NCBI GenBank assembly: GCA_030141605.1
Contig: JAQGDQ010001052.1
Coordinates: 3,465 to 67,464 of the forward strand
Direction of reading: 5' to 3'
DNA length: 64,000 nt
Source: Tubiluchus corallicola
Taxonomy: Eukaryota; Animalia; Priapulida
In this document: in pieces, positions 616-63,200 of the stretch
Layout of the letters: each line of letters opens with the position of its first letter
Numbering within the stretch: position 1 is the first letter of the stretch
The notes under the pieces: generated by a model
What the model saw: the letters and a program-made list of their open reading frames with translations, nothing else
Told to the model about the DNA's origin: nothing
Database searches by the model: none
Program-made: the position numbers and the translations under genes

Positions 616-3600
616 CTGCAAGTTTAATATGTTACATTTATTATGAGCTGCGTGACCTTGATGTGTGACCTTGATGCATGACCTTGATGTGTGACCTTGA
701 TGCATGACCTTAATGAATGACCTTGATGTATGACATTGATGTACAACCTTGATGTGTGACCTTGATGTATGACATTGATGTACAACCTTGATGTGTGACC
801 TTGATGTAGGATGTTGATGTACAACCTTGATGTGTGACCTTGATGTAGGATGTTGATGTACAACCTTGATGTGTGACCTTAATGTACGACCTTAATGCAC
901 GACCTTAATGTGTGACCTTGATGTAGGATGTTGATGTACAACTTTGATGTGTGACCTTGTTGCACGACCTTAATGTGTGACCTTGATGTGAGACCTTTAT
1001 GGACAACCTTGATGTTTGACAATGATGCACAATCTTGATGTGCGGTCCTGATGTATGATCTTGATGTGTTACCCTGATGCACGACCTTAATGTGTGACCT
1101 TCATGTGTGATCTTAATGTGTGACCTTAGTGTGTGACACTGATGTGTGACATTGATGTGTGACCTTGATAAATGACCTTGATGTAAGACCTTGATGTGAG
1201 ATACAATGAGATCATACGTTCTACTCTTTTACACGTTCCACATGAATAAATTTGCTGTTGTAACATTTGGTAAGAACATAAAAAACACCACAAATCACAG
1301 TAGAGTTACTAGAGTATGAATTAATCTAATAGTAACACTACATTAATAACAAAGTCTGCCCTTCCCTTCCTTCGTATGGAGGATCAGAAACAAGATCCAA
1401 TGTACTTAGTACATCTCCAAGTACTACTACAGAATTGTCAGTGCTACTCTATAAAAAGCTGATACAGCTAGAGAATAACAGGAGATGACAGATCAGGTAC
1501 TTACTATGGAGGATCAGAAACAAGATCCAATGTACTTAGTACATCTCCAAGTACTACTACAGAATTGTCAGTGCTACTCTATAAAAAGCTGATACAGCTA
1601 CAGAATAACAGGAGATGACAGATCAGGTACTTACTATGGAGGATCAGAAACAAGATCCAATGTACTTAGTACATCTCCAAGTACTACTACAGAATTGTCA
1701 GTGCTACTCTATAAAAAGCTGATACAGCTACAGAATAACAGGAGATGACAGATCAGGTACTTACTATGGAGGATCAGAAACAAGATCCAATGTACTTAGT
1801 ACATCTCCAAGTACTACTACAGAATTGTCAGTGCTACTCTATAAAAAGCTGATACAGCTACAGAATAACAGGAGATGACAGATCAGGTACTTACTATGGA
1901 GGATCAGAAACAAGATCCAATGTACTTAGTACATCTCCAAGTACTACTACAGAATTGTCAGTGCTACTCTATAAAAAGCTGATACAGCTACAGAATAACA
2001 GGAGATGACAGATCAGGTACTTACTATGGAGGATCAGAAACAAGATCCAATGTACTTAGTACATCTCCAAGTACTACTACAGAATTGTCAGTGCTACTCT
2101 ATAAAAAGCTGATACAGCTACAGAATAACAGGAGATGACAGATCAGGTACTTACTATGGAGGATCAGAAACAAGATCCAATGTACTTAGTACATCTCCAA
2201 GTACTACTACAGAATTGTCAGTGCTACTCTATAAAAAGCTGATACAGCTACAGAATAACAGGAGATGACAGATCAGGTACTTACTATGGAGGATCAGAAA
2301 CAAGATCCAATGTACTTAGTACATCTCCAAGTACTACTACAGAATTGTCAGTGCTACTCTATAAAAAGCTGATACAGCTACAGAATAACAGGAGATGACA
2401 GATCAGGTACTTACTATGGAGGATCAGAAACAAGATCCAATGTACTTAGTACATCTCCAAGTACTACTACAGAATTGTCAGTGCTACTCTGTAAAAAGCT
2501 GATACAGCTAGAGAATAACAGGAGATGACAGATCAGGTACTTACTATGGAGGATCAGAAACAAGATCCAATGTACTTAGTACATCTCCAAGTACTACTAC
2601 AGAATTGTCAGTGCTACTCTATAAAAAGCTGATACAGCTACAGAATAACAGGAGATGACAGATCAGGTACTTACTATGGAGGATCAGAAACAAGATCCAA
2701 TGTACTTAGTACATCTCCAAGTACTACTACAGAATTGTCAGTGCTACTCTATAAAAAGCTGATACAGCTAGAGAATAACAGGAGATGACAGATCAGGTAC
2801 TTACTATGGAGGATCAGAAACAAGATCCAATGTACTTAGTACATCTCCAAGTACTACTACAGAATTGTCAGTGCTACTCTATAAAAAGCTGATACAGCTA
2901 CAGAATAACAGGAGATGACAGATCAGGTACTTACTATGGAGGATCAGAAACAAGATCCAATGTACTTAGTACATCTCCAAGTACTACTACAGAATTGTCA
3001 GTGCTACTCTATAAAAAGCTGATACAGCTAGAGAATAACAGGAGATGACAGATCAGGTACTTACTATGGAGGATCAGAAACAAGATCCAATGTACTTAGT
3101 ACATCTCCAAGTACTACTACAGAATTGTCGGTGCTACTCTATAAAAAGCTGATACAGCTACAGAATAACAGGAGATGACAGATCAGGTACTTACTATGGA
3201 GGATCAGAAACAAGATCCAATGTACTTAGTACATCTCCAAGTAATACTGCAGATATGAATCCATTTCCTGCAAATATTCAAATCACAACTACAGTCGGTA
3301 ATACAATGTTCACGGGATGCAAATATTTTTACCTATTAAGCGTGTTTCGTACTATCCATTACGTATATTCCTACTAATGTTTTTTCAACGATAAAATAGC
3401 AGTTACACATAGGGTTATCATACGTCCGGATTTCCCCGGACACATCCTCTTTTTGGGCCTCTGTCCGGGCGGGTTTTCAAAAAATCGGCAGTTTGTCCGG
3501 GTTTTGCCTCAATCCGTAAGTATGTACGAACGTTACCAACTGCAGAGGCGTACGACAGGACGAGACAAAGAAAAGCTCGTTAATTTTCAATACAAGATGT

Positions 3601-6600
3601 TGCTAACATCTCAAAATGCAACCCTTGTAAAAGCTTTGTGTACGTATTTACTGAACAAGAGTAAGCGATGCGCACATCGCTACGTGTCACACGAGTGACT
3701 TCGGTCTTCGGAAAAGCAATTCGGTCTTTGGAAAAGTATTCTTGGTCTCAGCCTCGGGCTCAGTCAAGTTCAAGCCTAACTGTTTCTGAGAGCCAAGAAG
3801 AAGCAGGCGACTGACAGTTGCAGTGTGTTAATGTTTTTTGCAGTATAGCCATTTGGTATTGCTATTAGAATACATGTAGGCCTATTTGTATAATTTGAAT
3901 TTTATTTTGCATTGTTTTAATAGACCCTAGACTGGTCATTTTTGCCTACTTACAAGTGTGCGAAAAACTGTCCTCTTTTTCAACTCGGACAATATGGTAA
4001 CCCTAATTATACGACACCTGCAGCCTTTACATTGGTTACCTGTTAATCCGAGAACATCATTTAAGTTAGTTTAACCCCCTCTTTCCCACAAGTACAATGT
4101 TGTCAGTTGGTGTAGTACAGTAGTAACAAGCCTGCAAGCAAGAGGGTTAGTGGTGCCAGAGAGTCTGCAGTATACAGCTTTCTGCTACTTTAGTATTACA
4201 TGCAGGCAGTAAGAAAAATAGGTGATTTAAACTACGTAATGGTAAATTGCAATCAGAGTGGGAAGCCAAAGTCTTTTCAAAAACTAATAATTCCAATTGG
4301 CGCAAGTGGCAAAAAGGCAGTTTTCTAGGTGATCACTCATCCAATTGCTGACCAAACTCACCACTGATTAACTTGAGTCAATACGATCAATCGGGGCCAC
4401 CCAGCTGTTTGTAATTGCGCCCAGTTTAAAAAGATTTTATTGTCACTTTATGTCAACTTTCCGTGTGAAATATCATAGGCGAGTTGTGGTGATTCCCAGA
4501 CAAACAACCCGAGTTCAAAACCGGCTGGCGCATTTTTTTGCCAATCATTAATTCTTTTTACTTAAAAGAGAGTAAATTCTTCGAAGTTTCTCTAAATTTC
4601 AAAGGAAACTACAGTCGCCTAGAATCAATCTATGAAACAATAAAGAAGCAATTTACCTTCCGGATCAAAACTTTTGAAGACTCTTTTAGCTGCTTCTTCT
4701 GGAGTTTCTGGAGCTACAAGAGATTTGTCCTGAAGAAAAAGAGGCAACATTTCATGATGACATTAAACTGAAACTGAAACTTGACGACTTGGCAAGCAAG
4801 AGGAGGCAAATTAGAGTATGTGATTAGTAATGTCCCAGTGAGATGATTGTATGCAAGATTCTTTGTGTTACCTGCTCAATTCACCTTTGATATTTACCTG
4901 TGTAATGTCATGTGACTCGTTAGTATCAGAGCTGCAAGTCTTTACATTGTGCGCGCTTTTGTTGTGCACATGGCAGTTGCTGTAGGTCAAAGGTTAAGTG
5001 TACCACATCAACGAATCTTAACTACAACTGTCACGTGATGTGTGGGTAAAGCGAAGCTGTCTGTCGTATCAGTTCAGTATCTTCAGTTGTTTTACGTGGA
5101 CTTTACTTAATTACGCATTAGTCTGTGCACAGAGTGATTTACTAGCAGGATCTTGCTTGGGAACAAGAAAAATGAACTAGGTAAGGTTCTAGCTAGCTGT
5201 TAAACTGTTACTATTACAACAGCATGGAGTGCGAGGCTTTGCCAATTGTGCACACACACTGTCCGGTACACTCAACCTTTGACCTTTTCATGATCATCAT
5301 CAATCGCTGAACCTGTGAAAAGGCTTATTGTGCAATGATTCAAGGATTTAACATCAAGAATCAAACAAAAAAATCTTTGACTAAATTTTGCAATACCCCA
5401 GACACAAGAAATTACTGAATGAAGCAAAGTAGGATTGTTGTTAGCGGTAGGGTTAGGGTTGGGAAACTATGGCCATATCACATTGAAAACAAAGGTTCTC
5501 GTCTGATCACCGAAGTTAAGCAACGTAGAGCCTGGTTAGTACTTGCATGGGTGACAGCCTAGGAACACCAGGTGCTGTAGGCTTGCGGGAAGCCCACACT
5601 GTATCTCGACACTAGGCGGAGGAGCTACACAAGCAGCCAACGGCTAGAGGGCAGAGGAGGTCAAGTGACCCAACGGTCATGTTTAGAGGAGTAAACCTTC
5701 CAAATCAGGAGTGGACTCCGGCACCTCTTGCAGCCAACCTGGTGCTAAACGTATCGCTCCGCTTTCCTCTGGACTACACCAGGGAGGAAGAGAGGGGGTT
5801 CCTGTTGTCTGGGCAACTCAGGATCTCCATACACCTTGCCCAGGCTTGCGCCCTGGAGACGTTCAAGGATCGCACTGCTCAGCCACAGTCGACGCTGCAG
5901 CTCCATCAATGTGATCAATAACTGACACTCTTGGCGCACACTCCATTGTCTTCCGAGACAGAAGGATGCCAACAACAAGGGTTAGGGATGGTGTTATGGT
6001 TACAAATGGGTTAAGGTTAGAGTATTTATATTGTGTGGGGAATTGTAAACTCCTTCAAAATCGTTTAAATGATAAACGTTTAAAAAAACCGTAATTCTTC
6101 TACTGAAAAATCACTGTTCCATAAACAAGGAAGCAGTTCTCACTAAGCAGCAAGATGGACGTGCTTACCTCAGAAAACACGATGGTCAAGTGCGTTTCAC
6201 TTCCCATCAACCAGATTGGAAACTTTGGACACTTGAGAAACCAACCAACCTGCTTAAACGTGAATGAAAACATCAAAGTCAACTTAAAATCCAACTCTCA
6301 TTACGAATATTCAATTCATTTTATCATAAACTTTCTGTAAAACTTGTTTCTTTTGGTTTTTTATCACTTCCTTGTTAGCGAAATTAAATTTTTACGAACT
6401 GCAATTTTCGTTGTGCGACACGACTGACGTAACGAGTACAGTCACGAGGTCACCAAAGATCGGTAAACAAACATCGGAAACTAAAGACGCTTTCTGTACC
6501 TCATACGTCATTCTCGCTGACTCGCGTAAAAGACGCCAAACACGGCAATCTTTATGACTTTCACGCGTTCGAAATTCGACAGAAAAAGGTAAGTTATTTA

Positions 6601-9600
6601 ATTTGTAAGTTTCTTTTGCTTAATAATAACTATGAATTCTTTGTGTAATCATAATTATGTATTAAAAAACTTTAATGTGTGTTTGATATAGGCATTTAAA
6701 ATGAATGATGTTGCAATCAACAAACAACACAGTATTGTCTAAATTGTGTATCTCATAATTATACACTAATACATACAATCATTGTTTTTACCTCGCAATA
6801 ACGTAAGTGTTCCAGCAGTGTGAGAAAACCAACTGTTGATTGTCTAGATATTCCTCGCAGCTCTGTAAAAAAAATCAATAAATTCCAGCAAATGCTTTTA
6901 TTTTCCAAGGTTCTTGGCAGCGTGAACAAATGCGGGGTGCTGCACCACCAAGAAACACATGCTTTTAGTATGAAAATGACAGAAAATCATTTCATTTCGT
7001 ACCAGTCGCAGCGCGCAGCTAAAATTACTGGGGGGGGGGGGGGCTGTTTCAGAAACTGCTTCAGTACTGCTTTAATACTGTGTAAAACAAAACAGACGTG
7101 AAATTTTATTGTTGTAATTTTAGTGAACAAACATATGAAAATTTATACATGAATTTGACAAACTTGTAAACAAAAAGCATTTTTTTCTTACGAATAGCCT
7201 AAATTGTCACAGTTGAAGAATATGCTGGTACACGGATTTAAAGCACGTGACAACTGACAACACATACAGCGTGTTATCTCAGACATACACTCATGGCTGC
7301 ATACCCACAACAGCCAAATACCATGGTGCTCGAGCTGTGAGCACCAAATACACCACTGTGCTGGGCTGTGAAGCAAACAGTACTACCCTCACGCGCTCTG
7401 GTTTCGTACAACTGCAAAACACACTGCACTGGGCTGTGAAACAAACAGTACTACCCTTACGCGCTCTGGTTTCGTACAACTGCAAAACGCACTGTGCTGC
7501 GCTGTGAAGCAAACAGTACTACTCTCACGTGCTCTGGTTTAGTACAACTGCGAAACGCACTGTGCTGGGCTGTGAAGCAAACAGAACTACTCTCACGTGC
7601 TCTGGTTTAGTACAACTGCGAAACGCACTGAGCTGGGCTGTGAAGCAAACAGTACTACTCTCACGTGCTCTGGACCGTACAAGTATAAAGAAAGAACTAA
7701 AGAAAAAAGACTTATTATATTGAATATTATATCGACAATATTGAGTGAAAATAGGGGGGACTGCAGTTCCATACAGTACCTATACACGAGCCACCACTGT
7801 TTCATATGAAATCACATATGAAACACAAAACTCGTAGAATTGAAATATAGAAAACTTACTAAGGCCTGAAATATCTTTCTCGTTGTCAAACACGTGAGCA
7901 GCTGCTTGTCCTGTCAGTAACAAATTTATTAAACTTTGGCTACCATGTCCATGGATAGGATCAATTAAAGGTTGACTAGTATCTTCTCTTTCATTGTTTA
8001 TATTCTCCACACCCTAAAAATCAATAATATTAGTTCACCAAAACTGTTTTAATTTTTAAAATGGTAATACTCCTTCAGGACAGTAAGCGTTTGCTGCATT
8101 TTGCACGGGTTCATGAAAAACTGCTCTCTCTAAGCAGCGATCACGTTATATTTGATAATTTTTGCAAGTTTCTACTCCTCACACAACGGATTTTCATGCA
8201 AAATTACATATCAAATGCATTTGTTTACCTTAAACAAATTAAAAATCAATTTTTGATGAAAAAATTGAAAAATGTTTCAGTAACTGCAGTGTTTGCACTG
8301 TAACAATGTACAGTATCACTTGTGTGAAATCAGCTAATGTAGAAAATTTCAACTATCCAGACACAACACTCTGATAAACATTGACCTCAAGTCTACTCTA
8401 TTGTTAAGGAGAAATTCCTGTTAAAAATGAAATGGCCTTAATTGGTCTTTCACTGATCGTTTGGTTTTTCCTGGAATAGCAGCAGAACCTTGCACAGCAT
8501 GGACTATAGCAAGTAGGCGATCAATAAATCAGTGTGTACGATCACGCAAGTGTACACCAGACTAAGCTACTCAATAAGCTAGGTTAGAGCGCCTGAAAAG
8601 GGTGTGTTTTTCTTAATTTTATCCAATTAAATCACTTATAAATGTTTAAACTAACAGCATGATTGGATAGCCGATATTCTCCTGAATAGAAAAGTATCTA
8701 ATTTGTAATCATTTAGTTATGTCTGTGCTCATACAGTAGCAGAAAAGTCATAGGTCTTGTAACACGTATTTTGAATAGTGCAGTGCTGAAGGAATTAACA
8801 TTTTTTACAAACTTTGAATGAAAAACATATAGCCAGTTTTATGTTATTTAATTGTCACAGTAACTAGTACAGTCGTCGTACCTTTGTCAATAATACTGAA
8901 TAGAGGAAGAGAATAACACCGCATGGTCCCTGTAGAAGCTGCAACTTTTCTTTCAGCGCCGACTTTACATTTTCCAGAGATCTATAGCTGCACATGCTAC
9001 AAAAATTACAATACATTCTGCACATGTTACAAAAGCAACAATCATTTCACAATGAACCATCAATAAGTCTTTTCACAGTCTTAGCGGCTGACAATAATCG
9101 TGGAAAGGTCAAAGGTTAAGTGAACCAGACAACACACTTGTGTACACTTGACAATGCCTCACAGCCCGTGCTATTGTAATACCAACAGTTTTAACAGCTA
9201 GCTAGAGCCTTACTTTTCATTTTCTGTTGTTCCCAAGCAAGATCCTGTTAGTAAATCGCTCTATGCACAGACTAATGCATAATTAAGTAAAATACACATA
9301 AAACAATTGAAGTTACTGAACTCCTGCAGCTGACGGCTTTGCTTTACCCACATGTGACGTGACGACTGTACTTAAGATGTGTTGCTGTGGTATACTTAAC
9401 CGCTGACCTACAGCAACGGGGAGTGCACACAACAAAACTGCGAAGAGGCTTATGGCGGAAAATGACAAGAGCATTTTGGCAATTTTCTTACTTTCAGGTT
9501 AGCAAAACATCAACTAAAGCAGTGAAAAATATTCCAGTATTAGATTTTCATTAAATTTTGATCCTAGCCCTAATCCTGGCCTACCAACTTATAAGAATCC

Positions 9601-12600
9601 ACAGAATCCACTTATAATGACTAGAAATGAACATTAATATTATAAATTATATTTAATTATAAGTAAAAATGAACATGATTAATTCACACCTAAGATTAGC
9701 ATGGAATTGTGCCTGAGGTATGTTAACGAGTTTGTTACTATTCGTAGAAGGTATGATCTCGTTATCCTCATCCTCATTTTGAACAGAACTCAGCGGACCG
9801 GTGTACCAGATGAGAATGACTTGCTCACGGTAGACCTGTTCCAATATGTCACACATTGCCATGATAAGACGTTCACACACTTCTTCACCTAAAACACATT
9901 TGTTCAAATCAGAGCATTTTTTTATAATTGTTCATTTACAACCATTTAGACAGGATCTTACTTGACATATTAGACAGTTCAACATCGCATATATATTTAA
10001 TTTCCTTTTATCATGTATATTTTGTTGTCCATTATTAATTCATCAATTATAATATATTTTCTTCTTTGGTTTGACCTGATTTGTTTATTTATTTTTTAGT
10101 TTAATCAATTACTTATATAATAATTTACTGATATGGTTGAGTACCGTTGCATATTTTCACTTTATTACGTTGTTCTCCAACCATGTAGTCTATTTAGTTA
10201 GCTTGTCTTTCATACATAATTTGTTCTCTTATTGAACTTTCAGTGACAGTGATTATTCTTCTACTCTGTATAATAATAACACAGCAGCGCTATGAAATTT
10301 GCTTATAATTTACATTAATCTGAAAGAGGTAGGAGAATTTTATGACCAATTGTTCCTTCGCTACCCTTTCTCTTGCACCCCCTAACATTTTCCTTTACGT
10401 ATATTTTTATCGCAATTGTTAATTAACGACAACCGAACACAGCTGTCGCTTACATCACAAACTAACCAGTTTTGCGTAATGGCAGGCATCTTCTCTGTGC
10501 GTCAAGCACGTTTGCGTAAGCAAAGATCATTACAAGACGCTGATGTGATGTCACGAAAATGAGCTCGACGTCACAGACAAACACTGCAGTTCATGATCAT
10601 GCTTATCACGGTACCACACCTATTTGTCGGGAATTTGACGAAAAGGTGCCATTGCTAGTCTTAGTGGATTCGCTGAGCTGCACGTAGCTTTGAAAGTTTA
10701 CAAAATGTAACTATCCGAGGTAATTATTATTATTTAACCTAAGATTTGATTTAAAAAAGTCCAAGTTTTCAATATTTTAGAGCATAATTTATTTGAACTA
10801 ATGTCTACACAATAACTCAGTTTTCCTTTAACATTTTACTTGATATTACATCTTATGAATGACGTTTAATTTGGCCTTGTACTGTAGGATTCTATTGCAA
10901 CCATAAACCTTTGTCTTTTTCCATTACTTACACTCAATCTGCATTGCTTCAGTTTGTTAATTTCAACATGAAGAAACTTTTGCCACATATTTCATTCTTC
11001 ATTCTGTTTTAAATCGCTTAACAGTAAACAATCTTACTATCAAAACTCGTTACAACTTTGAGCAATTGTGTTTTTTACGTACCGCACGTGTCTCGCCATC
11101 CCTCAATGAAGTCACATGCAAACATTATGTTCTTAAGCAAAAAGGCTTGCACGGGAGCGATCACAGCACATGGACCACCGTCATACTGTACCAATGCTGT
11201 AGGCTCGTTCTCGCTAAACACGAAACCTGAAATATAATATTTAATAGTATAAATTTGAATTGAAATAAATTGTTAGAGGACAGCCATGTACGTACTAATC
11301 TTATACATGCGTACTTTAAACAACAAATGATCTAGAATTACGAAACAGCAAAAACTTCAATGGATATTATAATTCACAACTCAATACAATCACAATTAAT
11401 GCACAGTATTTTGGCTGCCGGGTTTATGAAGCAGCTGCAATAGAATAATAAAAGTTCCACAAAAATCAAAATGACATTTTAAATGTTTATGGTAAACAAA
11501 AGCTTTGCAAACAATGATAGTTACTGCACAGACTGCACAGACTGTGAAAGACAGGATTGGTGGTGGTACAGTAAATAATCAATAATCATTACATCTACTA
11601 GGGTTTGTAATGTTATACCTGAACTGAACAATCATTTATCAATATAAGGGCAGCTGATGTACTGTAACTACTGTTAATGTATACAACTTTATGCAACCAG
11701 TCTGTGATGAATGAAGCCATGCTTATGTACTGTAACTACTGTTAATGTATACAACTTTATACAACCAGTCTGTGATGAATGAAGCCATGCTTATGTACTG
11801 TAACTACTGTTAATGTATACAACTTTATACAACCAGTCTGTGATGAATGAAGCCATGCTTATGTACTGTAACTACTGTTAATGTATACAACTTTATACAA
11901 CCAGTCTGTGATGAATGAAGCCATGCTTATGTACTGTAACTACTGTTAATGTATACAACTTTATACAACCAGTCTGTGATGAATGAAGCCATGCTTATGT
12001 ACTGTAACTACTGTTAATGTATACAACTTTATACAACCAGTCTGTGATGAATGAAGCCATGCTTATGTACTGTAACTACTGTTAATGTATACAACTTTAT
12101 ACAACCAGTCAGATGATATTACTTTATGCATCTGAATTTTCTTCACAAACATGCTTATCACTGCGCTAGCCACAAATGAAATGTTTAACTATGAAGACAG
12201 CGATTCGTTCTTTTTACTCAAGTGGCTTAGCAACTGCTTGTAGCACCGGGGGGCAAAAAACTTCTGGCGCCCTGCCCTTTTTAATGTTTTGAACATTTGT
12301 TTCGTGGGTGAAATCACAAAATGTGCGTGTTTTTGCATCTCCCACCCTGACCTTCCCTTTTTGACATGATGGGATAAAGATAAACGAATTTCTTCAAAGA
12401 TCACCCAGAGTTTGATTTGTGGTACTGCAGCAGAGTAACTCTTTTCTAGGCATTAGTTGCTCATAACAGTCCTTAAACATTCAGCTCCAACATTAAAACA
12501 TGCAAAGATTATGAAAGATACAGAACACTACAGGTTTTCACAATAATACAATCTGCATTTAGAAGAATGTCACCGTTTCTTCCAAAATTATCTATCAGCC

Positions 12601-17658: not shown

Positions 17659-17659
17659 A

Positions 17660-17800
17660 TGGCCTTTATCATTGGCCCGCTGGCCAAAAATTTCCTAAAA
17701 TTTTTGCAAATTTCACCAGTACGTCGCCATTTTAATTTACGAGAAAGCACAGGAAAGATTGTTTTAATAAAAAATAAAATTCTACAAAAATGGCGCAGAA
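17660..17800. promoter_or_regulatory. Putative bidirectional promoter region for MINDY3/LCMT2
   Basis: The genes are head-to-head. Divergent YY1-like AAAATGGCG motifs lie at 17725-17733 (-) and 17787-17795 (+), with an inverted CCAAT at ~17671. Confidence 0.4.
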
Positions 17801-17989
17801 TACTCTTGAGTATCAACCAAATTAAAAAATATTTAAAACTTGTTACATTGACATACAAATTTTTTTTTAATTTGGCAATACTAATATTTACGTTTTTTAG
17901 TTGAAAACTTTCGTCACAAGCAACGCTCAAAGACGTGTGTATATGGATTGTTACACGTTTTCTAGCAACAGGCGAAAATATATCAATAA

Positions 17990-18525
17990 GAAAAATTTTA
18001 GCATTAGCAGCATATTCCAAATTTAAAAAAATTGAGAGTAAGAGAATCAGTCTAGAAACAAAATTAAAAATCGTTGCTGCACTTGTAGAAACTGTGTTCT
18101 GTACAACTCAGATTGTGGACAATCAAAGTACATCAGAAATCGTTGCAAGAAGAAACTGTAGGAACATTCTGGGAATAAAATTGCCAAAGAAAATAATAAA
18201 CTAGGATCTGTATAATAAAGTCAAGGTAGAGATTGGATAGAGGAATTGACAATTAAAATCAAAAGGAGAAGATTAAGATGGATAGGACCTGTTATACGAG
18301 TACCAGGTGACAGTCCGTTAAAATTAGCTTTCAAAGAAGCACTGCAGGAGAAAAGAAACCACAACGAGGACAACTGATGGCTTACATCAATTTCATCCAG
18401 AAAAGTCTTATCAGCCCAACATTAGATATCAAAAATACAGAGACACGGAAGGTTGCGGGTGACATGGTTCAAGTAATAGCAAGAGTCATGTCAGAGGACG
18501 TGTGACTCCAGAGATGATGATGATA
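17990..18525 (+). mobile_element. Decayed 3' fragment of an RTE-like LINE
   Basis: Broken translation ..ISLETKLKI..RNILGIK..IKRRRLRWIG..PLKLAFKEAL, with stops and frameshifts; (GAT)n tail at ~18512. Confidence 0.7.
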
Positions 18526-19556: not shown

Positions 19557-19681
19557 ATTCAAGGCACTAATGATTCAAGCACGACAAGCAAGTGTTCGAT
19601 GTCACGAGCTGGGTATTTTGATGATGACATCATTTCCCTTTTTGTTAAAAAGTGCAAACGTCGGACACCCTTGATAAACAG
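19557..19681 (+). CDS. LCMT2: LCMT2 exon a
   Basis: IQGTNDSSTTSKCSMSRAGYFDDDIISLFVKKCKRRTPLIN(R). Confidence 0.92.
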
Positions 19682-33201: not shown

Positions 33202-33225
33202 TTGAAAGTGCTGAGTCAATTTTCA

Positions 33226-35280: not shown

Positions 35281-35311
35281 AATAAAATTAATGAACAAGC
35301 CTGTTAATAAA
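35281..35311 (+). other. Candidate LCMT2 polyadenylation signals
   Basis: The first AATAAA hexamers after the stop codon are at 35281 and 35306, downstream of the 47-bp array. Confidence 0.4.
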
Positions 35312-42234: not shown

Positions 42235-42272
<38 letters not shown>

Positions 42273-51200: not shown

Positions 51201-54200
51201 GACAAGATACATTTCATGTCAGCAACGTTGGAAACTTTGTATAGGCTTCACACTGAATACGTTTGTTCAAACATTTCAAAAGCTTTTAATGAAAGTTTCA
51301 TAAGGAAACCATTTGTTTAAGCATTTCAAAGCTTTCTAGAATACATCTGACTAATCTTGAACAAAACGAACGTTTCTAGTACGGGTTGTTCACACTGAAT
51401 ATGTTTACTCGTGGATTTCTAAACTTCCAGTTTAAGTTTCACAGCGAAAACGTCTACTTTCAAATTTACTGTTCATTGTTGTGCAATAATTTAGCTTTGA
51501 CGTTGAGTAACAACTCAAGACATTCTACTGGATAAACGTTTAGTATTAATTTATTGAATTTTAAGCACCTGGGTGCAAACTTTTCTGTGCAACCTGTAGA
51601 TCGGTAGTTAGACTAACATGTCGTTAATTAAGTTTTTAACTTATTATTTAATTATTAGAAATACTTTGGCATTATCGTATGTGTTAAAATATATACATTT
51701 AACCATACTTCAAAATGATATGAAAAATCATCCTGTTTTGCTTTAAATGTAATAACTTGCTTGCATTGAAAATCACCATAGATACAGGGATGAGAATTTT
51801 CCGTGGATACGCGGAATTCCGAGTTTTTGGAAGACCAGTAGTGCCACTTTTGTAAATCGCGTAAATTCGTTGAGAAAATTTTTACGGACCCAGTACATTA
51901 TTTCGCAAGCTGGCCGCTAGGTGGCAGGCCGTCACTTTGTTTACATCACGTACATCAGTGTAACCACGTGTATATCTTTATGTGTAAAAATATAGAATCA
52001 ATTGTGTGGAGTTATTTGAGTCAATTGCAGACAGTTTTTATAAACTTTTGCATAAGAGCAGCCAGTACTTAGGCGTTTTTGAGACAATTAGGTATCATGT
52101 ATCCTTGATAGTTGGATATTTTAAATTATGCATGAAACAAGGTAATTGATATTGTAAGTCCACTTAGAGGCTCTCTATGGCCACAAAATTGCAATTTGTT
52201 GCTGGTTCCAAGGGGGTTTCCCTTGAACCCCATTGGGGAAGGCCCCCAAACCCCCGGCCTGTTTCAGAGTTTTTTGCAATTTGTCATTCTCATCCCTGTA
52301 GATGTTGAAAATGGGTGAAATTGATAAAAACCCATTATCTTTAAAATCTTGTATCTAATCCATTCCATGAACTTAAATAAATATTCATAATTTTAGGCGT
52401 TAAAGCGGCACTTTTTCTCAGTTCACTCGTGCAAAGTAGGTAGCTCTTTGCGACATCCCGTTGCGCTACTTTTCATCACAGTGCCACCTGCAGGCGTGGA
52501 CGTGAACTTAGAACCGAACAAAACTAAAGTGCTTCTTCAAGAAAAGGTAATGTGTTGGACTATTAAACGTTCTTGCATTTTCATAAGCACAATTGTTCAT
52601 AGTGTTCTAAGTGTATTTTGCTTGATCAATTTGGCATTTGATTGGTCGGTTTGTTGATTAGCTTGTTTATACATTAAAACATATTGTAAATATAGGTATT
52701 AGGATAAATAGATAAAATAGATTGAGAAAGTATGCTAACTAATTTGTTAAAATAGATTCTTCTTTCGATGAGTTTTTTTATTACTGCTAATTGTAAATTA
52801 TTTTATGAAATTTGTTTTGTACTGATAAAGTCCAATCAGTGAAAATGAAGCAAAATTTTCACTTAGGTGCGTATTGATGTATCTCAGAGTATAAAGAGTC
52901 AAGAAAGTTGGTGAAAAGGCACCAGTTCTTTGAAAACATGCTCAGGGGAGCAGTTGCTCCCCTTACTCCCCCTTAATAGCTACGCCCCTGGTATAAACTG
53001 CAGCAAGGAACTGTTACATTATTAGCGTGGCATTGAAAATGATGATTTTGTTACAGGACGGTGTTTTTGCTATGTTTGAAGAATGTTTAGTCAAAGTGTA
53101 TGGACACCCTGCTGTGAAAACATCTGTGCAAGGTGCTAGAGCAACTTCAGTAGAAGTGGAAGAAGCCACTTTCAAGTGCAGTGCATTTAGTTTGAGTAGT
53201 GACCACACTGACCACACTCTCCGGGATGATGCAACTACTAGCAATGATGTCGAGGCAGGTGCTAGTGTTCAAAACAGAACCGACGTTACACGGTGTGATG
53301 TTGCGACCGCTATAGATTTGCAACATGGTGTCGAGGCAGGTGCTAGTGTTGAAAACAGAACCGACGCTACACGATGTGATCTTGCCACCGCTAAAGATTT
53401 GCATAATCTTGTTGAGACAGGTACTAGTGTTCAAAACAGAACCGACGCTACACAGTGTGATCTTGCCACCGCTAAAGATTTGAAAAATGTTGTTGAGAAA
53501 AGTAGTTCTTTGAATAACGCAAGCAGGAGAGAAGAGAATCGACAATCGTTATGCAAAATTGCACTTACAGACTCTCACACGGATGCGAAAAAATATGAAG
53601 TTGACGAATATAGACCACTCTGTGATTTTCCGTGCAGTTTTGACGACGACTTAGTGGAAGATTTGACTCTAGAAGAAGATGATTTATTGAGAAACGTGTC
53701 AGACGTTCTCGAAGAAGCAGCGTATTTTGAAAAACCTCGTGCTGAGATGACGGAAAATTGTGCAGGCGATATTGGTGATGTTTATGCTAGTGGGGCAGCA
53801 ACTGAGTGCGAGTTTCATAATAGCATTAAAAATACTGAAGTAATTAGTGATGCTTATCACAGTGGTGAAGCCAGGTTCAATGTCCAACTAAACACAACTA
53901 AAACATCCTCGCATTCGTTAGCAGATTCTGAAGCAGCAGCCCCCGCGCTGTCGGTTGACCTTGAATCTTGGACTTGCGGACGTGCATTTGTGGATCAAAC
54001 TAAGCAACCAGTGGAGGTATGAATAGTTTTTGTAGGAACGTGTGAAGATGGACATGATAGAGACGAAACCACTTTGATGGCTTCTTTTCTCACCTGTATT
54101 TAGGCTTGTTACTGAACAGCAATGCTTCCATACATGGTGATATGTACCTGTATCATTATAATATGGATAATTAATATTTACATGCTTGAGCATTTGCTGA

Positions 54201-57200
54201 TAAAAGAAATGTGAAATCATTGAAGCGTACAGTAGATTGTACTGTAGATACGTAACAATCAATGCAGCGAGCGTACCATTAGTTCACTTAATGAGCTAAA
54301 TCAGCAAAGTGTTAACTCTTTCGGGACAGCACCATTCAAAATTGGTCTTATGAGACCTATGACTTTTGTACTACTGTATGAGCACAGACATAACTAAATG
54401 ATTACAAATTAGGTACTGTTCTGTTCAGGAGAATCTCTGCTATCCAATCATGCTATTTGTTTAAACATTTATAAGTGATTTAATTGGATAAAATTAAGAA
54501 AAACACGCCCATTTTCAGGCTCTCCAACTTAGCCTATTGAGTAGCTTAGCCTGGTGTACACTTGTGTGATCTCACACACTATTTTATTGATCACCTGCTT
54601 GCTACAGTCCAGAGAAATGTCTGCTGTACAGAGTTCCAGGAAAACCTAACCGATCATCCTAGGAGAAATTAAGATCATCTCATCTTTTAACCGGAATTTC
54701 TAATTAAAAACAGAGCAGACTTGAGGTCAAAGTGTTTCAGAGTGTTGTGTCTCTGGATAGTTGAAATTTTCTGCATTAACCAATTTTGTACAAGTGATAC
54801 TGTACATTGTTACAGTGCAAAGACTGCAGTTACTGGCAGATTTGTTCCATTCTTTGTCAAAAATCAGTTTTAGTTTGTCTAGGATAAGCAAATGCATTTC
54901 ATATATAATTTTGCATGAAAATCCATCGTGTGAGGAGTAGAAACCTACAAAAGTTATGGAATATAACGTCATCGCTGCTTAGTGAGAGCACTTTTCATGA
55001 ACCCGTGTAAAATTCAGCAAACTCTTACAATCCTGAAGGAATTAAAAAAGGCTGACCTGTAACGTGAATAAGTTAATTAGTTAACTACATTTTTGCATAT
55101 AAACTATTGAAATGATAAACCTGAATCTGAAAATGCAATAGGATCTTTTAATTTAAAGTATTGAAATGGTTTGCTTTTCTGATGGATTACGCTGTAAACT
55201 TTACACACTAATGAGTGAAAATTGAATACCATGTTGAGTTTTTTAGCATTTACCATTCACAAAATTGATTGTCGACAAATATATTTAGCATTTTATTTAT
55301 AAAGCCTGCATAAATTAACTCGCGTATCGTGATACATATCATATCATGAGGTTCGTATCGTGATACATATCATATCATGAGGTTCGTATCGTGATACATA
55401 TCATATCATGAGGTTCGTATCGTGATACATATCATATCATGAGGTTCGTATCGTGATACGTACGTGTGTCATGACCTAAGTGTATCGTTACAGTCTTTAG
55501 ACAGGGACTAATTTATTCATTTTTTGTTTATGACTTAGCCTGTTAAAGTTTTCACTTCGGATGCAGCGCCAATCAAACGTCTTCCTTCGTCTCCGTCTGA
55601 CGGGAACGCTTTGAAGAAACAAAAGATCAATCGAAGCCAGACAACTTTGTTTGAGTCGTTTAATAGAGAAAGTATCAAGCAGTCTCCGTCGTCGTACATT
55701 TCGTTTTGCAATCATACCCGTCGCAAAAGTACGTTTATTTCTAAAATATCTCAGCATCAATTTCTGTACGTAGAGCTTCCGTATTAATATTCAAGTAATG
55801 CAAGTCCTCGCTTAACAACGCTAATGGGTTCCAACAAAATGTGATGTTAAGCAAAACGTCATTAAATGAAGCCAAGACTTCCGTAGAAAGTAATGTAAAA
55901 CAATTGGGATACGTTCCGGAGACAAAAATCAATCCTGCTTGACTCATATTTGTTAAACATTCTATGAGTTTTATTCATATTTCTACTGATTAATGTCTTC
56001 CTGTTTGCCTAAAACCACCTATATATTTTACTTACCAATACCTAGCTATAGCGGTTTCTATAGTAGGTTAACGTTTAAGCCTAGCCAGGGGTTAAACAAT
56101 AAACACTGAAGAGTCTAACCCTGGTGTGACCTTGAGAATTTTACCTACATACTTAGTCTGGTTGCTATAGCAACAGGTTGCAGGCAAAACTGCCCGCTGG
56201 TCACTTGATACTTGATACAAACCGCTAGTAATACAGTAGTAACATAAGCAGTCAGTAGGGAAACAAAAACATGTATAATAATTGCTCTGTTTACGTTATT
56301 AGTGCATTTCTAGAACTGAATAATGCGATAGGTACTGTTTTAATGCATCAAATTAGGTAAAAATTTTGTTGCTCAAATAAAAATTTGCCTTGAACAAAGT
56401 AAAAAGTTCGTTGTTAAAGTGAGACGTGTGTCGTTTAGTGAAAAAAGGGGTCAAATGATCGGCGTCATTAAAACGAAACATCGCTAAACGGGCAGTCATT
56501 AAGCGAGGACTTACTGCAGTCATCTTGTAAATACTTTCATTTGTTAATGCATTTTCTAATTTCTTTTAGGGATTCCAGCTTCCAACGCTTTTTTTATTTA
56601 TGAAAATCCTCTAACTACACATTGTAAAATCAATTTGCCACATTGCTAAAACACTTGTCATTTATTTATTAGTAATAGAGGAAAACCTGGGTGCCGACTT
56701 CAAACAAATCGGAAATCTTCTGAACAAAAAATGGCAAGAATTATCCGACGATGAAAGAAAGTCTTACAGAAATTTACCCAGCCAAGGCTTGCCAGGGTGA
56801 GTACTGTTCACATGTGAAGTGATGCCGGGGTGAGTACTGTTCAAACGTGAAGTGATGCCAGGGTGAGTACTGTTCAAACGTGAAGTGATGCCGGGGTGAG
56901 TACTGTTCAAACGTGAAGTGATGCCGGGGTGAGTACTGTTCACATGTGAAGTGATGCCAGGGTGAGTACTGTTCACATGTGAAGTGATGCCGGGGTGAGT
57001 ACTGTTCAAATGTGAAGTGATGCCAGGGTGAGTGCTGTTCAAACGTGAAGTGATGCCAGGGTGAGTACTGTTCAAATGTGAAGTGATGCCAGGGTGAGTA
57101 CTGTTCAAACGTGAAGTGATGCCAGGGTGAGTACTGTTCAAATGTGAAGTGATGCCAGGGTGAGTGCTGTTCAAACGTGAAGTGATGCCAAGGTGAGTAC

Positions 57201-60200
57201 TGTTCAAACGTGAAGTGATGCCAGGGTGAGTACTGTTCAAATGTGAAGTGATGCCAGGGTGAGTACTGTTCACATGTGAAATTTTAATGTTGGTGTACGC
57301 AGTTATCAATGTCCCGCTTACATAAATTTCTACTATTTACAACATTAATCTGCTTGCCCAAGAATCATCTAAGCGGTAAATTGCAAAAACTCTTTCTCTC
57401 TCGCGTATGTTACAAGAATTCCGCCATGTTGGACATTCTTGCTGGCGTGTGCTAGATTTGAACCACGCCTCTTACTCGTGTAATACTTGGAGTTTGCACA
57501 CTTGGTGACTCCAAAATGTGTGAGTAAACGTGATATGATTCGGAGGCGATAATTGTCTCGTAGCTCTTTCTTTAAAAATTGAATTTTGTTGTTCAAAAAC
57601 TTCTTCAAACATTCAAAAGGGTTCATCATTTATTCACTTACTGAAGAAATACAAAGTTGAGTGAATTGCTATGATGATATAACGGGTTTAGAGTTGGGCA
57701 ATTTCTTCATATTAGTTCATCATGTATATTTGATGTTTTGTTATATGTATGACGTCACCGGGAACGGTTAACCTGCCACATTTAATAACATTTAAACGGT
57801 TAGCTGAAAAGCTTAACCATCTCACCTCTAAGATGAGGCGGCTTTCTGGGTGTTAACAAGATTTTTTGTTTGTTTCACAGCTGCAGTAAAAAGAAAAGTC
57901 GTACTCCGACCAGCACAAAGTTACTTAAACAGAAGAATTCTAAGAAAGCGCCACCTGAACATGTAACAGAACAACTTATTTTACTTTGATTACAGTTTTT
58001 GTGTTTGAATAGCAATAGGTTTAGACCGTGCGCTAGAAATAGATCTCATAAACAAAAATTATGTTGTTAATCAAATAGTTATCTCTATTTTGAAGATAAC
58101 TCCTTCACTTTTGACTCATCTTTGCATCTAACTTTATTATTTTTGCTGTTTTTGAGGCTTTCATTTTGGTAGCCCTCGTGTAAGGAACCAAGTACTGGGT
58201 TATATCAAATCTCTAAACAAACTTTTTGTGGTACTTGCACTTTAACTACCACGATTGTAATGGTTTGATACATTATATACAGCATATATACAATTTTACA
58301 CCTACGTAGAGCAAAAACTTGGGCATTTATAACTAAGGGCAGTAGTATCATCATGTAGAAAAAATTCAGTGTTTGTAGACATGTTTTTCATGAATCTGAT
58401 CTGTATTTGTGTGCTTGAATAGCAGTATCGTCCACAAGTCGGCAATTGAGTTTTTCTAGTTATTCACGGTATCCTGAATCTCCATTTCACGAGGATCATT
58501 TTGATGCCAAGCTCATTGCTCTATGTTGTTTCTAAGCTGAGATAATCCACGTTGAAGTTGAGGTGCAGGCTGGGCACTGAGAAACATGATCTTGAGAAAA
58601 TCACTGTTAAAGTCAGCCATTGTTTTTTACTTAGCAACCGCACAAATGTTGGTTGCTACGGACTTTGCAAGAACACATTGAAGTTACATTTAAATCCAGT
58701 AGATGGCTCTTTTTGACAAAGGTCTGGGTTTGGCAACAGAAAAAACCCGAAGCAAAATGGACTGCTTCCACGAGCTACTTCACATTTGAAAATACAAGTT
58801 TTTCACAATTTCAGTACTAGTTTCTAACCTGAAAAGTGGGTACAGGATTTTAAAATTTGATTTTTAGTGTTTTTTGAACATTTTCTTGATAATTTGATCC
58901 TAGTTTGTTTTATAAAAAACAAAAAAGACATTTGACCAAAGTTTTGGTTCATCCTACTTTCAAGCATCATAACGTAGTTTTAACTATGCTGACTTACGGA
59001 CGGCTTTGATTTACAAGCACACATTTCGTTCTTCAATCACAAGTGATAATTGATAAATATGTTTTAGAAATATTTCTAACATTATCTTTAATATTTGTTT
59101 CAGTGCTAATTAAATTTTATTTTGTTGATTTTAGAGAGGAACTAGACCGATTATCGATTTACTCAAATCTGCTGCAAAGACTGGTCAGCCAATCGCAAAC
59201 AAGTCACTGCTTCGAAAAGTAATCAGCATTCCATTTTTCGCGGTCAGCTTAAGAGAAAGGTTAAAAGAACATTCTAGTCGTCGGTAAGATTTAAACCATA
59301 CACAAAAATACACAAAACTATTTATAGTTTCAAAAAGTACTTGAAAAGGACCATTTTTGATTTATACTTATAATACCTCTATGTAAATTAAACATACACT
59401 GTGGTCGTTTCTTCTCCTCTTTTCCTTCTTCCTATCCCTAATCTTACTATTTTTTTCCATTCCATCATGTCTACTAACCCTAACCATTCTTTCATTCACT
59501 CATCCTCCCCTCCCTTCCTTCTTCCTATCACTAATCTTACTATTTTCTCCATTCCGTCATGTCTACTAACCCTAACCATTCTTTCATTCACTCATCCCCT
59601 CCTCCCTTCCTTCTTCCTATCACTAATCTTACTATTTTTTCCATTCCAGCATATCTACTAACCCTAACCATTCTTTCATTCACTCATCCTCCCCTCCCTT
59701 CCTTCTTCCTATTCCTAATCTTACTATTTTCTCCATTCCATCATGTCTACTAACCCTAATCATTCTTTCATTCACTCATCCTCCCCTCCCTTCCTTCTTC
59801 CTATCCCTAATCTTACTATTTTTTCCATTCCAGCATGTCTACTAACCCTAACCATTCTTTCATTCACTCATCCCCTCCTCCCTTCCTTCTTCCTGTCCCT
59901 AATCTTACTATTTTTTCCATTCCATCATGTCTACTAACCCTAACCATTCTTTCATTCACTCATCCCCTCCTCCCTTCCTTCTTCCTATCCCTAATCTTAC
60001 TATTTTTTCCATTCCGTCATGTCTACTAACCCTAATCATTCTTTCATTCACTCATCCTCCCCTCCCTTCCTTCTTCCTATCCCTAATCTTACTATTTTTT
60101 CCATTCCATCATGTCTACTAACTCTAACCATTCTTTCGTTCACTCATCCTCTCCTTCCTTCCTTCTTCCTATCCCTAATCTTACTATTTTTTCCATTCCA

Positions 60201-63200
60201 TCATGTCTACTAACCCTAACCATTCTTTCATTCACTCATCCTACCCTCCCTTCCTTCTTCCTATCCCTAATCTTACTATTTTTTCCATTCCATCATGTCT
60301 ACTAACCCTAACCATTCTTTCATTCACTCATTTCTGCCACCCTAACAAGCCAAGCTTTCAAGGTGTCATACAGCAACTCTTTTATTTGGTTAATTTGACT
60401 TCATCAACGTTTTTTACCCATACTGTTTCTTTTTGTTTCAATAATATTGTATGTTGATGTATTGTATATGTATTGCTGGAGTGAAATAAATTGATTGATT
60501 GATTGATTGAACCAGGCTTCATAGACTTACACAACCAGGCTTCATAGACTTACACAACCAGGCTTCGTAGACTTACACAACCAGGCTTCGTAGACTTAGA
60601 CAACCGGGCTTCATGGGCTTACACAACCGGGCTTCATAGACTTACACAACCGGGCTTCATAGACTTACACAACCGGGCTTCATAGACTTACACAACCAGG
60701 CTTCATAGACTTACACAACCAGGCTTCGTAGACTTACACAACCAGGCTTCGTAGACTTACACAACCAGGCTTCGTAGACTTACACAACCGGGCTTCATGG
60801 GCTTACACAACCGGGCTTCATGGGCTTACACAACCGGGCTTCATAGACTTACACAACAATTGTCCTGCAAACTTTTACATGTATGAATTTGTCATTCGCA
60901 TTGCGGATTCTTCAAGAGAGCTTTAGTGACTGTAGTAAACTATTTTGAACACTTTGAGACCGGAAAATCTGTTCTAGTTATGCGAAAGTTCGAGTTAGAT
61001 GAATGTTTGAGTTAGACAATGTTGGTAAGAAAACAAGATTGAGTCACTCATCAACGTCGGGCAATACACTAGTAACACTACAGGCTGTGAAAATGACAAA
61101 CTTAGCCTTTAATCAAATATCAAACAACAATTTTTATAAATAATGAAAAATAAAATGACTGGTCCACCTCTATTGTAGTCTGAGTAGCATGGTTAATAGA
61201 ATTCAGCAATAATAATATTGTGATCTACATTAAACTACGTTTGCTAAGCCATGTTGTATGCAGCGTTCTGCCAAGGTAATACAAGAAATCTTAGAATTTT
61301 TGCTGAAACAAGCAGTTAAAATTGTAATGCGGTGCAGCCTTTCCTGTTCAGCGTTCTGCTAAGGTAATACAAGAAATCTTAGCATTTTTGCTGAAACTAG
61401 CAGTTAAAATTGTAATGTGGTGCAGCCTTTCGTGTTCAGCGTTCTGCTAAGGTAATACAAGAAATCTTAGAATTTTTGCTGAAACTAGCAGTTAAAATTG
61501 TAATGTGGTGCAGCCTTTCGTGTAGGATTGCTCACTTGGGAGATTGTTCAAGATAGGTGGGGTAATTTCAATCAGATTCTTAAGAATTATATCGGAAATT
61601 CGGCTCGAGTTACACGGTAAAATGAGTTACACACTTCAAGGCACACGATGTTTGTTAAAGAGAAAATCTGTTGAGCGAGATATGTTTGAGATACGCAAGA
61701 ATTTGAGTTGTAGCAGTTCAAGTTACACGTAGTTTACTGTACTTGTTGAAATGTATGTGATTTTTAAACGTGTTTGAATAGTTTTCTTACTAGTCTTATA
61801 CGACTTATTTAGTCATTTATTTGTTTTCTTTACTGTGAATATCGAGAAAGTGACCACTCTTGTGTATTAAATAAAAAAATTGCTATACCACTTACTACGT
61901 TGTTTTAAATGTTCATTTAATCAAATATTGCAATGAAGTAGTAAGTACGTTTTTGCATGAGATGGATATAAAATTGGCAATTAAGATTGTGTACACAGGC
62001 TGCCCAGAAATCACAAGGTTGTGGGTTCGAGTCCCAGGAGCGGTACAATATTTTTCAGACTTTCTTAATTGTGTTACTTTCTTAGGCTAATTTAGTATTG
62101 CTTTCGTTTGTCTATATGACTGTAGTTGAAAGAGCCTAGAGTTGTCAAATGTCGGAAAAAAATCAATTAACAAATTGATTTTTCATTGAAACGGTCAATA
62201 TCTTCACATTTAGAAAATTTAAAGATCCAAATTTTTTTATTAAAATTCCACCATGTTAATCATCCTGTTGTCTGGATTCTATGAATCTCGGGTATCACCT
62301 GTTGTCAAAGTGAAAACATCGCAGGAGGCTGATGGTATTAACTGTTTTATATGTTACGTTTCAGTCAACCAAGTCAAACTAAGGAATGTGGGATACATCC
62401 AGAACTTATCGGTCAACTGGGAAGTGATGATGTGTGGTTGTGTAGAAATGGGAAAGATATTCAGGTGTTTCATCCCTACAGGGCTCTGGAGTGCATCTAT
62501 TTTTCTAAGCTGATGGAAAACCACAAACTGCCCATTCAGCCTCTGGACTTACCTGTAAATTTAACTGAAAGGTACGTGGACTTACCTGTAAATTTAACTG
62601 AAAGATACGTGGACTTACCTGTAAATTTAACTGAAAGGTACGTGGACTTACCTGTAAATTTAACTGAAAGATACGTGGACTTACCTGTAAATTTAACTGA
62701 AAGGTACGTGGACTTACCTGTAAATTTAACTGAAAGATACGTGGACTTACCTGTAAATTTAACTAAAAGGTACGTGGACTTACCTGTAAATTTAACTGAA
62801 AGGTACATGGACTTACCTGTAAATTTAACTAAAAGGTACGTGGACTTACCTGTAAATTTATCTGAAAGCTACGTGGACTTACCTGTAAATTTAACTAAAA
62901 GGTACGTGGACTTACCTGTAAATTTAACTAAAAGGTACGTGGACTTACCTGTAAATTTATCTGAAAGCTACGTGGACTTACCTGTAAATTTAACTGAAAG
63001 GTACGTGGACTTACCTGTAAATTTAACTGAAAGGTACGTGGACTTACCTGTAAATTTAACTGAAAGCTACGTGGACTTACCTGTAAATTTATCTGAAAGC
63101 TACGTGGACTTACCTGTAAATTTTCACCAATAACGACCAAAAATGGCTGAAAGAGTGATTCACACATTGCGAATCATAGATCACGCATCACACATTGCGA

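What the first reader, a model, noticed from the sequence alone, without database searches (positions are those of the whole stretch)
1375..63123. Recurrent tandem amplification of exon-intron junctions: five splice-site arrays across three neighbouring genes
Seen: five unrelated minisatellites are built from a gene's own splice junction. These are the MINDY3 exon 9 donor (130 bp x14), LCMT2 exon e donor (59 bp x11), PMS1 exon 4 acceptor (94 bp x11), PMS1 exon 9 donor (33 bp x15) and PMS1 exon 12 donor (33 bp x17). The array always extends into the intron, so the intact exon uses the first donor copy or the last acceptor copy. In four arrays every other site leads to a stop or frameshift. Inference: this lineage has a locus-seeded amplification process that tolerates, or favours, splice junctions. 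Its spliceosome must reliably pick the exon-proximal site among many identical decoys, or else array length could tune productive versus NMD-targeted transcripts. Such arrays are also raw material for intron/exon gain by tandem duplication.
Basis: partly seen in the sequence, partly recalled or inferred. Interest (0 to 1): 0.88.

Follow-up and report, generated by a model that had tools for sequence, protein, structure and literature searches.

The report
Five splice-junction minisatellites, a known kind
In three neighbouring genes of an invertebrate animal, five repeats each copy the gene's own exon-intron border 11 to 17 times; such repeats are already known from human and lancelet genes, five is close to chance in a region where a quarter of the DNA is tandem repeat, and the cell likely just uses the original border.

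Summary
Observation confirmed: five unrelated minisatellites span MINDY3, LCMT2 and PMS1 splice sites. They are 5 of 22 large arrays that fill 26% of the window. Random placement gives 1.9 junction overlaps (P=0.037), or 2.6-3.2 (P=0.11-0.21) once dispersed repeats, which arrays avoid, are masked. The window was also picked after the fact. 'Always extends into the intron' is a geometric necessity, and 4 of 5 giving a stop or frameshift is chance (15% expected open). A protein from a transcript-sized contig, with 8 differences in 394 aa, joins MINDY3 exon 9 at the first donor; whether that animal has the array is unknown. The kind is published: human F7, CBS, IFI6, LMNB2, PDGF (PMC1557585) and amphioxus 'mirages' (PMC3087553), with upstream-site use and the intron-gain idea. 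This scan has reported it in other genomes. One lead remains: the only in-frame array (PMS1 exon 12) lost GT in 7 of 16 decoys through two changes at +1, the other three donor arrays in 0 of 37 (P about 0.07 over four arrays).

The parts
1375..3253 (-). 130-bp x14.5 array spanning the MINDY3 exon 9 donor (49 nt exon + 81 nt intron; 14 donors; ends on an extra exon-part copy with no GT)
3195..3267 (-). MINDY3 exon 9; authentic donor at 3194
   Evidence: P0028 joins it to exon 10 without an insert
453..17658 (-). MINDY3 exons 1-10; the last exon was not found in the window
8988..9046 (-). older 30-bp x2 duplication (83%) spanning the MINDY3 exon 4 acceptor at 8996; the upstream copy has lost that AG
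18751..33201 (+). LCMT2/TYW4-like gene, 11 modelled exons (LCM + Kelch)
25828..26480 (+). 59-bp x11.1 array spanning the LCMT2 donor at 25843 (exon 25666-25842; 15 nt exon per unit); 4-nt terminal microhomology
40536..63621 (+). PMS1, 13 coding exons modelled; the gene continues beyond them
45944..46980 (+). 94-bp x11 array spanning the PMS1 exon 4 acceptor; last copy is contiguous with exon 46914-47188; 377-bp four-unit higher-order period; each unit also holds a donor-like CCC|GTAAGA after 41 nt
56790..57280 (+). 33-bp x14.9 array spanning the PMS1 exon 9 donor at 56797 (7 nt exon per unit); read-through meets TGA at once
62544..63123 (+). 33-bp x17.6 array spanning the PMS1 exon 12 donor at 62572; in frame and stop-free (11 codons per unit); 7 of 16 decoys lack GT
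653..64000 (.). background: 17 further large minisatellites that span no junction (15 intronic, 1 inside PMS1 exon 7, 1 just past the LCMT2 stop)

Best explanation
The five arrays are ordinary junction-spanning minisatellites, likely by-products of a high local rate of tandem amplification, and the cell likely splices at the original exon-proximal site and removes the copies with the intron. Shown: 22 unrelated arrays with units of 13-163 bp fill a quarter of the window, their units come from local sequence, and five of them include a splice site. Inferred origin: a short local duplication by microhomology-mediated slippage or template switching, then expansion by unequal exchange or gene conversion. 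Inferred survival: a junction-spanning duplication leaves one intact exon by geometry; donor choice follows the upstream-first rule shown for human F7; the acceptor array would be resolved by exon definition (last copy, 275-nt exon); any rare decoy use in four of the arrays would give a premature stop that NMD could remove.
For: Null tests on the array-collapsed window (49,085 nt, 66 modelled junctions, 22 arrays): expected 1.93, P(>=5)=0.037 uniform; 2.62-3.21, P=0.11-0.21 with dispersed repeats masked; 4.5 of 17, P=0.48 among arrays within 200 nt of a junction. Small repeats: 1 of 26 span a junction, 0.63 expected. In-frame and stop-free outcome expected in 14.7% of simulated donor duplications, seen in 1 of 5 arrays. 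P0028 (445 aa on a 1,960-nt contig, 8 substitutions in 394 aligned aa) has no insert at MINDY3 exon 9/10. PMS1 relatives align without an array-sized insert across exon 3/4 (2 proteins) and exon 12/13 (3 proteins). End structure fits microhomology: 4-nt remainder in LCMT2, 3-nt in PMS1 exon 4, 8 of 10 matching bases at the MINDY3 unit junction. Interspersed variants and multi-unit periods fit turnover. Precedent: PMC1557585, PMC3087553, PMC3902484.
Against: The uniform null is nominally rejected (P=0.037-0.046). 17 of 22 arrays lie within 200 nt of a junction (expected 9.3-10.8, P=0.001-0.007; 16 of 21, P=0.019 inside genes), though the 100-nt cut is not significant and a threshold-free test gives 0.037 unmasked and 0.13 masked. 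Why arrays avoid dispersed repeats (at most 1 of 22, 6.7 expected, P=0.003) is not explained. The exon 12 array has 2 of its 5 variant types at donor +1. Transcript-like evidence covers 1 of 5 arrays, is a single assembled product, and may come from an animal without the array. In human CBS and 6-16 (IFI6) some downstream sites are used (PMC1557585, introduction).
Confidence: 0.72

Rival explanations
1. Amplification in this lineage is biased towards splice junctions and exon-flanking DNA, for example by breaks or R-loops near exon borders, so junction arrays are over-produced.
For: 5 of 22 against 1.9 under the uniform null; 17 of 22 arrays within 200 nt of a junction; arrays avoid dispersed repeats; a sixth, older two-copy junction duplication at 8988-9046.
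Against: The excess is not significant once dispersed repeats are masked (P=0.11-0.21; threshold-free proximity P=0.13). The mask sees only elements present twice within 64 kb, so it is incomplete. The window was selected for this pattern. UTR exons are not modelled and would raise the expected count.
Confidence: 0.13
2. Decoy sites leak enough to be seen by selection or to tune expression. Arrays whose decoys give stops are shielded by NMD, while the in-frame PMS1 exon 12 array either accumulates donor-killing changes or acts as a coding repeat that adds 11-residue units.
For: Exon 12 array: G>A (3 copies, including copy 2) and G>C (4 copies) at donor +1 and G>A at +5, out of 5 variant types. 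The other three donor arrays have 0 of 12 variant types at GT and 0 of 37 decoys without GT. P=0.032 for this array alone. The title of a cited CBS paper reports a substitution in the second repeat that prevents alternative splicing (reference list of PMC1557585).
Against: Noticed after the fact in one array; P=0.07 that one of four donor arrays shows it, and only 0.5 GT hits were expected in the other three. The +5 change sits in a CpG. Nine decoys keep GT, the nearest 66 nt downstream. PMS1 relatives have no insert there. No RNA covers the site.
Confidence: 0.1
3. The arrays, or their lengths, are assembly artefacts.
For: No DNA run holding a window stretch was listed, so raw reads were not seen. 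The MINDY3 array is 99% uniform, so its copy number could be mis-assembled.
Against: Copies carry shared, interspersed variants and multi-unit periods (377 bp in PMS1 exon 4; alternating GT/AT copies in exon 12). Such arrays are real in human and amphioxus genes (PMC1557585, PMC3087553).
Confidence: 0.05

Closest known systems
Human junction-spanning minisatellites: F7 intron 7 (37 bp x5-9), 6-16/IFI6 intron 2, CBS intron 13, LMNB2 (100 bp x10-15), PDGF intron 4 (81 bp x16-18) (Borensztajn et al. 2006, PMC1557585; abstract and passages of introduction, results and discussion read)
   Same: The first unit spans the exon-intron border and the donor is reiterated into the intron; similar unit sizes and copy numbers; the authentic upstream donor is used alone in F7, LMNB2 and PDGF, as in the MINDY3 record here.
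   Different: Here five occur within 62 kb and one is an acceptor array. Polymorphism and site use were not measured here, apart from one MINDY3 product.
Amphioxus 'mirage' minisatellites in Adh3, globins BflGb6 and BflGb9, troponin C and PGBD5 (Ebner et al. 2010, PMC3087553, passages read; PMC3902484, one passage read)
   Same: Invertebrate genes with tandem duplications of both 5' and 3' boundaries; units of 10-160 bp; recurrent over several loci; reported not to disturb regular splicing; length instability and concerted evolution; the same intron-gain model was proposed.
   Different: This animal is not Branchiostoma (P0028 is 51% identical to the B. belcheri MINDY3). Copy numbers here are higher than in BflGb6 (3-6), and a local null for junction overlap is given here.
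Variable internal tandem repeats at exon-intron boundaries of human duplicated genes (De Grassi and Ciccarelli 2009, PMC2812944; passages read) and splicing-associated tandem repeats (PMC10078293; passages read)
   Same: Tandem repeats at boundaries can create alternative splicing or new introns, and repeat length can shift splicing.
   Different: No such effect is shown for any array in this window.

Membership tests
Junction-spanning minisatellite (F7 type / amphioxus mirage) | Head-to-tail array of a minisatellite-sized unit | tested here: met
   Units of 33-130 bp, 11-17 copies, 94-99% TRF matches
Junction-spanning minisatellite (F7 type / amphioxus mirage) | The unit holds the host gene's own exon edge and splice signal | tested here: met
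   5 of 5; exon models and tblastn hits of PMS1 and MINDY3 proteins to each copy
Junction-spanning minisatellite (F7 type / amphioxus mirage) | The terminal copy is contiguous with the intact exon and alone restores the conserved protein | tested here: met
   In PMS1 exon 12 other copies are also in frame but add residues that relatives lack
Junction-spanning minisatellite (F7 type / amphioxus mirage) | Mature mRNA mainly uses the authentic site | tested here: inconclusive
   Fits for MINDY3 in one assembled product (P0028), from an animal whose array status is unknown; no product of this species was found for LCMT2 or PMS1
Junction-spanning minisatellite (F7 type / amphioxus mirage) | Interspersed unit variants from turnover and concerted evolution | tested here: met
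   Shared variants and multi-unit periods in the five arrays
Junction-spanning minisatellite (F7 type / amphioxus mirage) | Copy number varies between alleles (VNTR) | not testable with these tools
   No genome held; no holder run listed
Splicing-regulating VNTR (CBS, IFI6, spl-TR type) | Downstream copies are used in RNA | not testable with these tools
   No reads of a run that holds these genes; the single MINDY3 product shows no such use
Splicing-regulating VNTR (CBS, IFI6, spl-TR type) | Array length correlates with isoform ratio | not testable with these tools
   Needs several individuals with DNA and RNA
Intron or exon gain by tandem duplication (Rogers model, as cited in PMC3087553) | The unit holds both an acceptor and a donor at workable spacing | tested here: met
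   As sequence only: PMS1 exon 4 unit = 41-nt pseudo-exon + 53-nt GTAAGA..CAG pseudo-intron; MINDY3 unit has AG at 56-81 nt from the donor
Intron or exon gain by tandem duplication (Rogers model, as cited in PMC3087553) | A new exon or intron appears in transcripts | tested here: inconclusive
   Absent from the one MINDY3 product; the other arrays are untested

The most novel reading that the evidence does not exclude
NMD decides which splice-site arrays can keep their decoys. In this minisatellite-rich lineage amplification falls near exons, decoy donors leak, arrays whose decoys give premature stops stay intact because NMD clears the leak, and in-frame arrays such as PMS1 exon 12 are selected to lose GT in their copies. 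The genome would then hold a great many natural F7-type experiments, and array length could tune PMS1 dose or add 11-residue units.
Probability: 0.1. Interest if true: 0.6.

Novelty: new member of a known kind. Interest (0 to 1): 0.2.

Why it matters
As it stands it is a dense but ordinary example of a published oddity, and a warning for annotation: arrays can look like extra exons or long repeat ORFs. It also shows that a cluster of junction arrays needs a null that allows for array density and for transposon-free space. If this density holds genome-wide, the species would offer enough arrays to test two open points statistically: whether tandem amplification is biased towards exon borders, and whether NMD lets decoy splice sites persist (GT loss in in-frame against out-of-frame arrays).

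Tried and rejected
No genome was held, so no genome-wide test could be run. Sequencing runs: no RNA holder listed for PMS1 exon 7. The single listed run X1 put contigs only on short intronic stretches of 3130-7350 and none on MINDY3 exons, which says nothing about splicing. Protein searches for this species' PMS1 (exon 4: 0 of 75 candidates scored; exon 12: 13 hits, at most 47% identical where identity was given) and LCMT2 (4 hits of 21 candidates, at most 56%) found no close product. My first MINDY3 models had the exon 10 and exon 4 acceptors wrong and were corrected. 'No array in a dispersed repeat' (0 of 22 by mask) was relaxed to at most 1 of 22, because the 7354-7673 array sits between two matches to one dispersed element. 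An exon-proximity bias was considered and found not robust. A link between PMS1 (mismatch repair) and the array load was considered and dropped: nothing here bears on it. Paper searches for a genome-wide test of junction overlap or for ascidian intron minisatellites found 0, 1, 0, 0, 0 and 3 papers, none with such a test in the passages read; the library lacks most subscription papers. Turri 1995, Canestro 2002 and Gao and Lynch 2009 were not held and are known here only as citations. No supplements were read.
Full report
Setting. The window is animal nuclear DNA of about 36% G+C with three genes: MINDY3 on the minus strand (10 exons, 17658-453), an LCMT2/TYW4-like gene (11 modelled exons, 18751-33201) and PMS1 (13 coding exons modelled, 40536-63621). 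Identity rests on Pfam, named PMS1 proteins and MINDY3 relatives. Named MINDY3 relatives are molluscs and a lancelet at 48-51% identity, so this is an invertebrate outside those groups' sampled genera; I did not place it further. No genome was held.

Observation. All five arrays are at the stated places and each holds the host exon's edge. MINDY3 exon 9 donor: 14 identical sites 130 nt apart. LCMT2 donor at 25843: 11 sites. PMS1 exon 4 acceptor: 11 sites, the last joined to the 275-nt exon. PMS1 exon 9 donor: 15 sites. PMS1 exon 12 donor: 17 positions, 10 with GT. Using any other site gives a premature stop in the first four; the exon 12 array is in frame and open throughout. PMS1 relatives align across exons 3/4 and 12/13 without an array-sized insert, so the exon-proximal site is the ancestral one.

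Which site is used. P0028 is a 445-aa protein on a 1,960-nt Logan contig, which I take to be a spliced transcript because of its size. It matched MINDY3 exon 5 at 100% and differs from my model at 8 of 394 aligned residues, plus 3 residues that corrected my exon 4 acceptor. It runs from exon 9 into exon 10 without an insert. This is first-donor use, but in one assembled product from another individual or a close relative whose array status is unknown. No such record was found for PMS1 or LCMT2.

Is five more than chance? I took all TRF arrays with score 250 or more, merged: 22 arrays, 16,398 bp, 25.6% of the window. Left out were a degenerate TTAGGG tract (score 192) and the small repeats, which were tested apart. 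With each array collapsed to one unit (49,085 nt) and 66 modelled junctions, random placement gives 1.93 overlaps, P(>=5)=0.037, and 0.038-0.046 if exonic placements are restricted. Self-BLAST and the LINE mark 11,653 nt as dispersed repeat, and no array unit falls in the mask; allowing one array that sits inside such an element, 1 of 22 against 6.7 expected gives P=0.003. With those bases masked the expectation is 2.6-3.2 and P=0.11-0.21; among the 17 arrays within 200 nt of a junction it is 4.5 and P=0.48. Of 26 small repeats one spans a junction, with 0.63 expected. Against the chance reading: 17 of 22 arrays lie within 200 nt of a junction (P=0.001-0.007; 16 of 21 and P=0.019 inside genes). 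The 100-nt cut is not significant, and a threshold-free test on the 15 non-spanning intronic arrays gives 0.037 unmasked and 0.13 masked. The window was also chosen because it shows the pattern. A preference for junctions is not established and not excluded.

A tandem copy of exon end plus intron start leaves the first copy joined to the exon and every other copy downstream of its donor, and the mirror holds for acceptors. Simulating duplications at all modelled donors with periods of 20-130 gives an in-frame, stop-free product in 14.7% of cases, so 1 open array of 5 is expected. In MINDY3 exon 9 and PMS1 exon 9 the stop comes from the donor bases themselves.

Mechanism of origin (inferred). 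Units are unrelated and local. The LCMT2 and PMS1 exon 4 arrays are whole copies plus 4 and 3 nt, the mark of microhomology. The MINDY3 unit junction matches the exon sequence just upstream at 8 of 10 bases, and this array and the exon 12 array end on an extra partial copy (49 and 19 nt). The exon 9 unit carries a 4-nt filler. This fits slippage or template switching followed by unequal exchange; interspersed variants and the 377-bp four-unit period fit turnover and argue against an assembly artefact.

Residual lead. In the one in-frame array two of five variant types hit donor +1 (G>A in copies 2, 4, 6; G>C in four copies) and a third hits +5, a CpG. The other three donor arrays have no change at GT among 12 variant types. 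P is 0.032 for this array and 0.07 for any of four. It was noticed after the fact, and nine decoys remain intact, so it is a hypothesis only.

Comparison with what is known. Borensztajn et al. 2006 (PMC1557585; abstract and passages) list human minisatellites whose first unit spans an exon-intron border: F7, 6-16, CBS, LMNB2 and PDGF. They show with 50 constructs that the most upstream functional donor is chosen; 6-16 and CBS also use two downstream sites. Ebner et al. 2010 (PMC3087553; passages) describe amphioxus 'mirages' at both donors and acceptors in several genes, report regular splicing and length instability, and propose the same intron-gain model. PMC3902484 (one passage) adds troponin C and PGBD5. 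The scan's own notes report single arrays of this kind in eight other findings; these are unchecked AI notes, and they gave me the lancelet lead. My searches found no paper with a genome-wide test of junction overlap.

Verdict. Real, and a new member of a known kind. It works like the F7 and mirage arrays and meets their sequence-level features; mRNA use is supported for one of five arrays and polymorphism is untested. Interest 0.2. The NMD-shield reading has probability about 0.1 and would deserve about 0.6.

Noticed in passing
window 13779-15929 (-): 716-aa open frame with a reverse transcriptase domain (Pfam RVT_1, E=3.8e-35), LINE-like and apparently 5'-truncated, in MINDY3 intron 1, next to a short TATAACTG repeat at 15933-15979.
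   Followed up: partly
window 5465-5583 (+): Full-length 5S rRNA match (Rfam RF00001, 86.9 bits) inside MINDY3 intron 7; a dispersed gene, a pseudogene or the head of a 5S-derived SINE.
   Followed up: no
window 8988-9046 (-): Older two-copy 30-bp duplication across the MINDY3 exon 4 acceptor; a sixth, decayed junction duplication.
   Followed up: partly
window 53243-53497 (+): 81-bp x3.1 in-frame repeat inside PMS1 exon 7 (27-aa units): the same process acting within coding DNA.
   Followed up: no
window 31022-32461 (+): The 54-bp x21 array that starts 90 nt after the LCMT2 donor at 31193 is open in the exon's frame (479-aa frame); retaining the intron would add 18-aa repeats in place of the last exon.
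   Followed up: no
window 45944-46980 (+): Each 94-bp unit can be read as a 41-nt pseudo-exon plus a 53-nt pseudo-intron with a consensus-like donor that lies within the coding exon.
   Followed up: partly
whole window: Large minisatellites avoid the dispersed repeats (at most 1 of 22 against 6.7 expected, P=0.003) although most arrays are far more uniform than the roughly 80%-identical repeat copies; unexplained.
   Followed up: partly
window 8071-8804, 40737-41444, 54306-55040: Three copies of a 650-740-bp dispersed element (81-84% identical); several smaller families recur as well.
   Followed up: no
window 17658-18851: MINDY3 and LCMT2 start head to head about 1.2 kb apart; both LCMT2 and PMS1 have an acceptor upstream of their modelled start codon.
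   Followed up: no
window 56673-56796 (+): The end of the PMS1 HMG box is in frame but poorly conserved against two relatives, just before the exon 9 donor array.
   Followed up: partly
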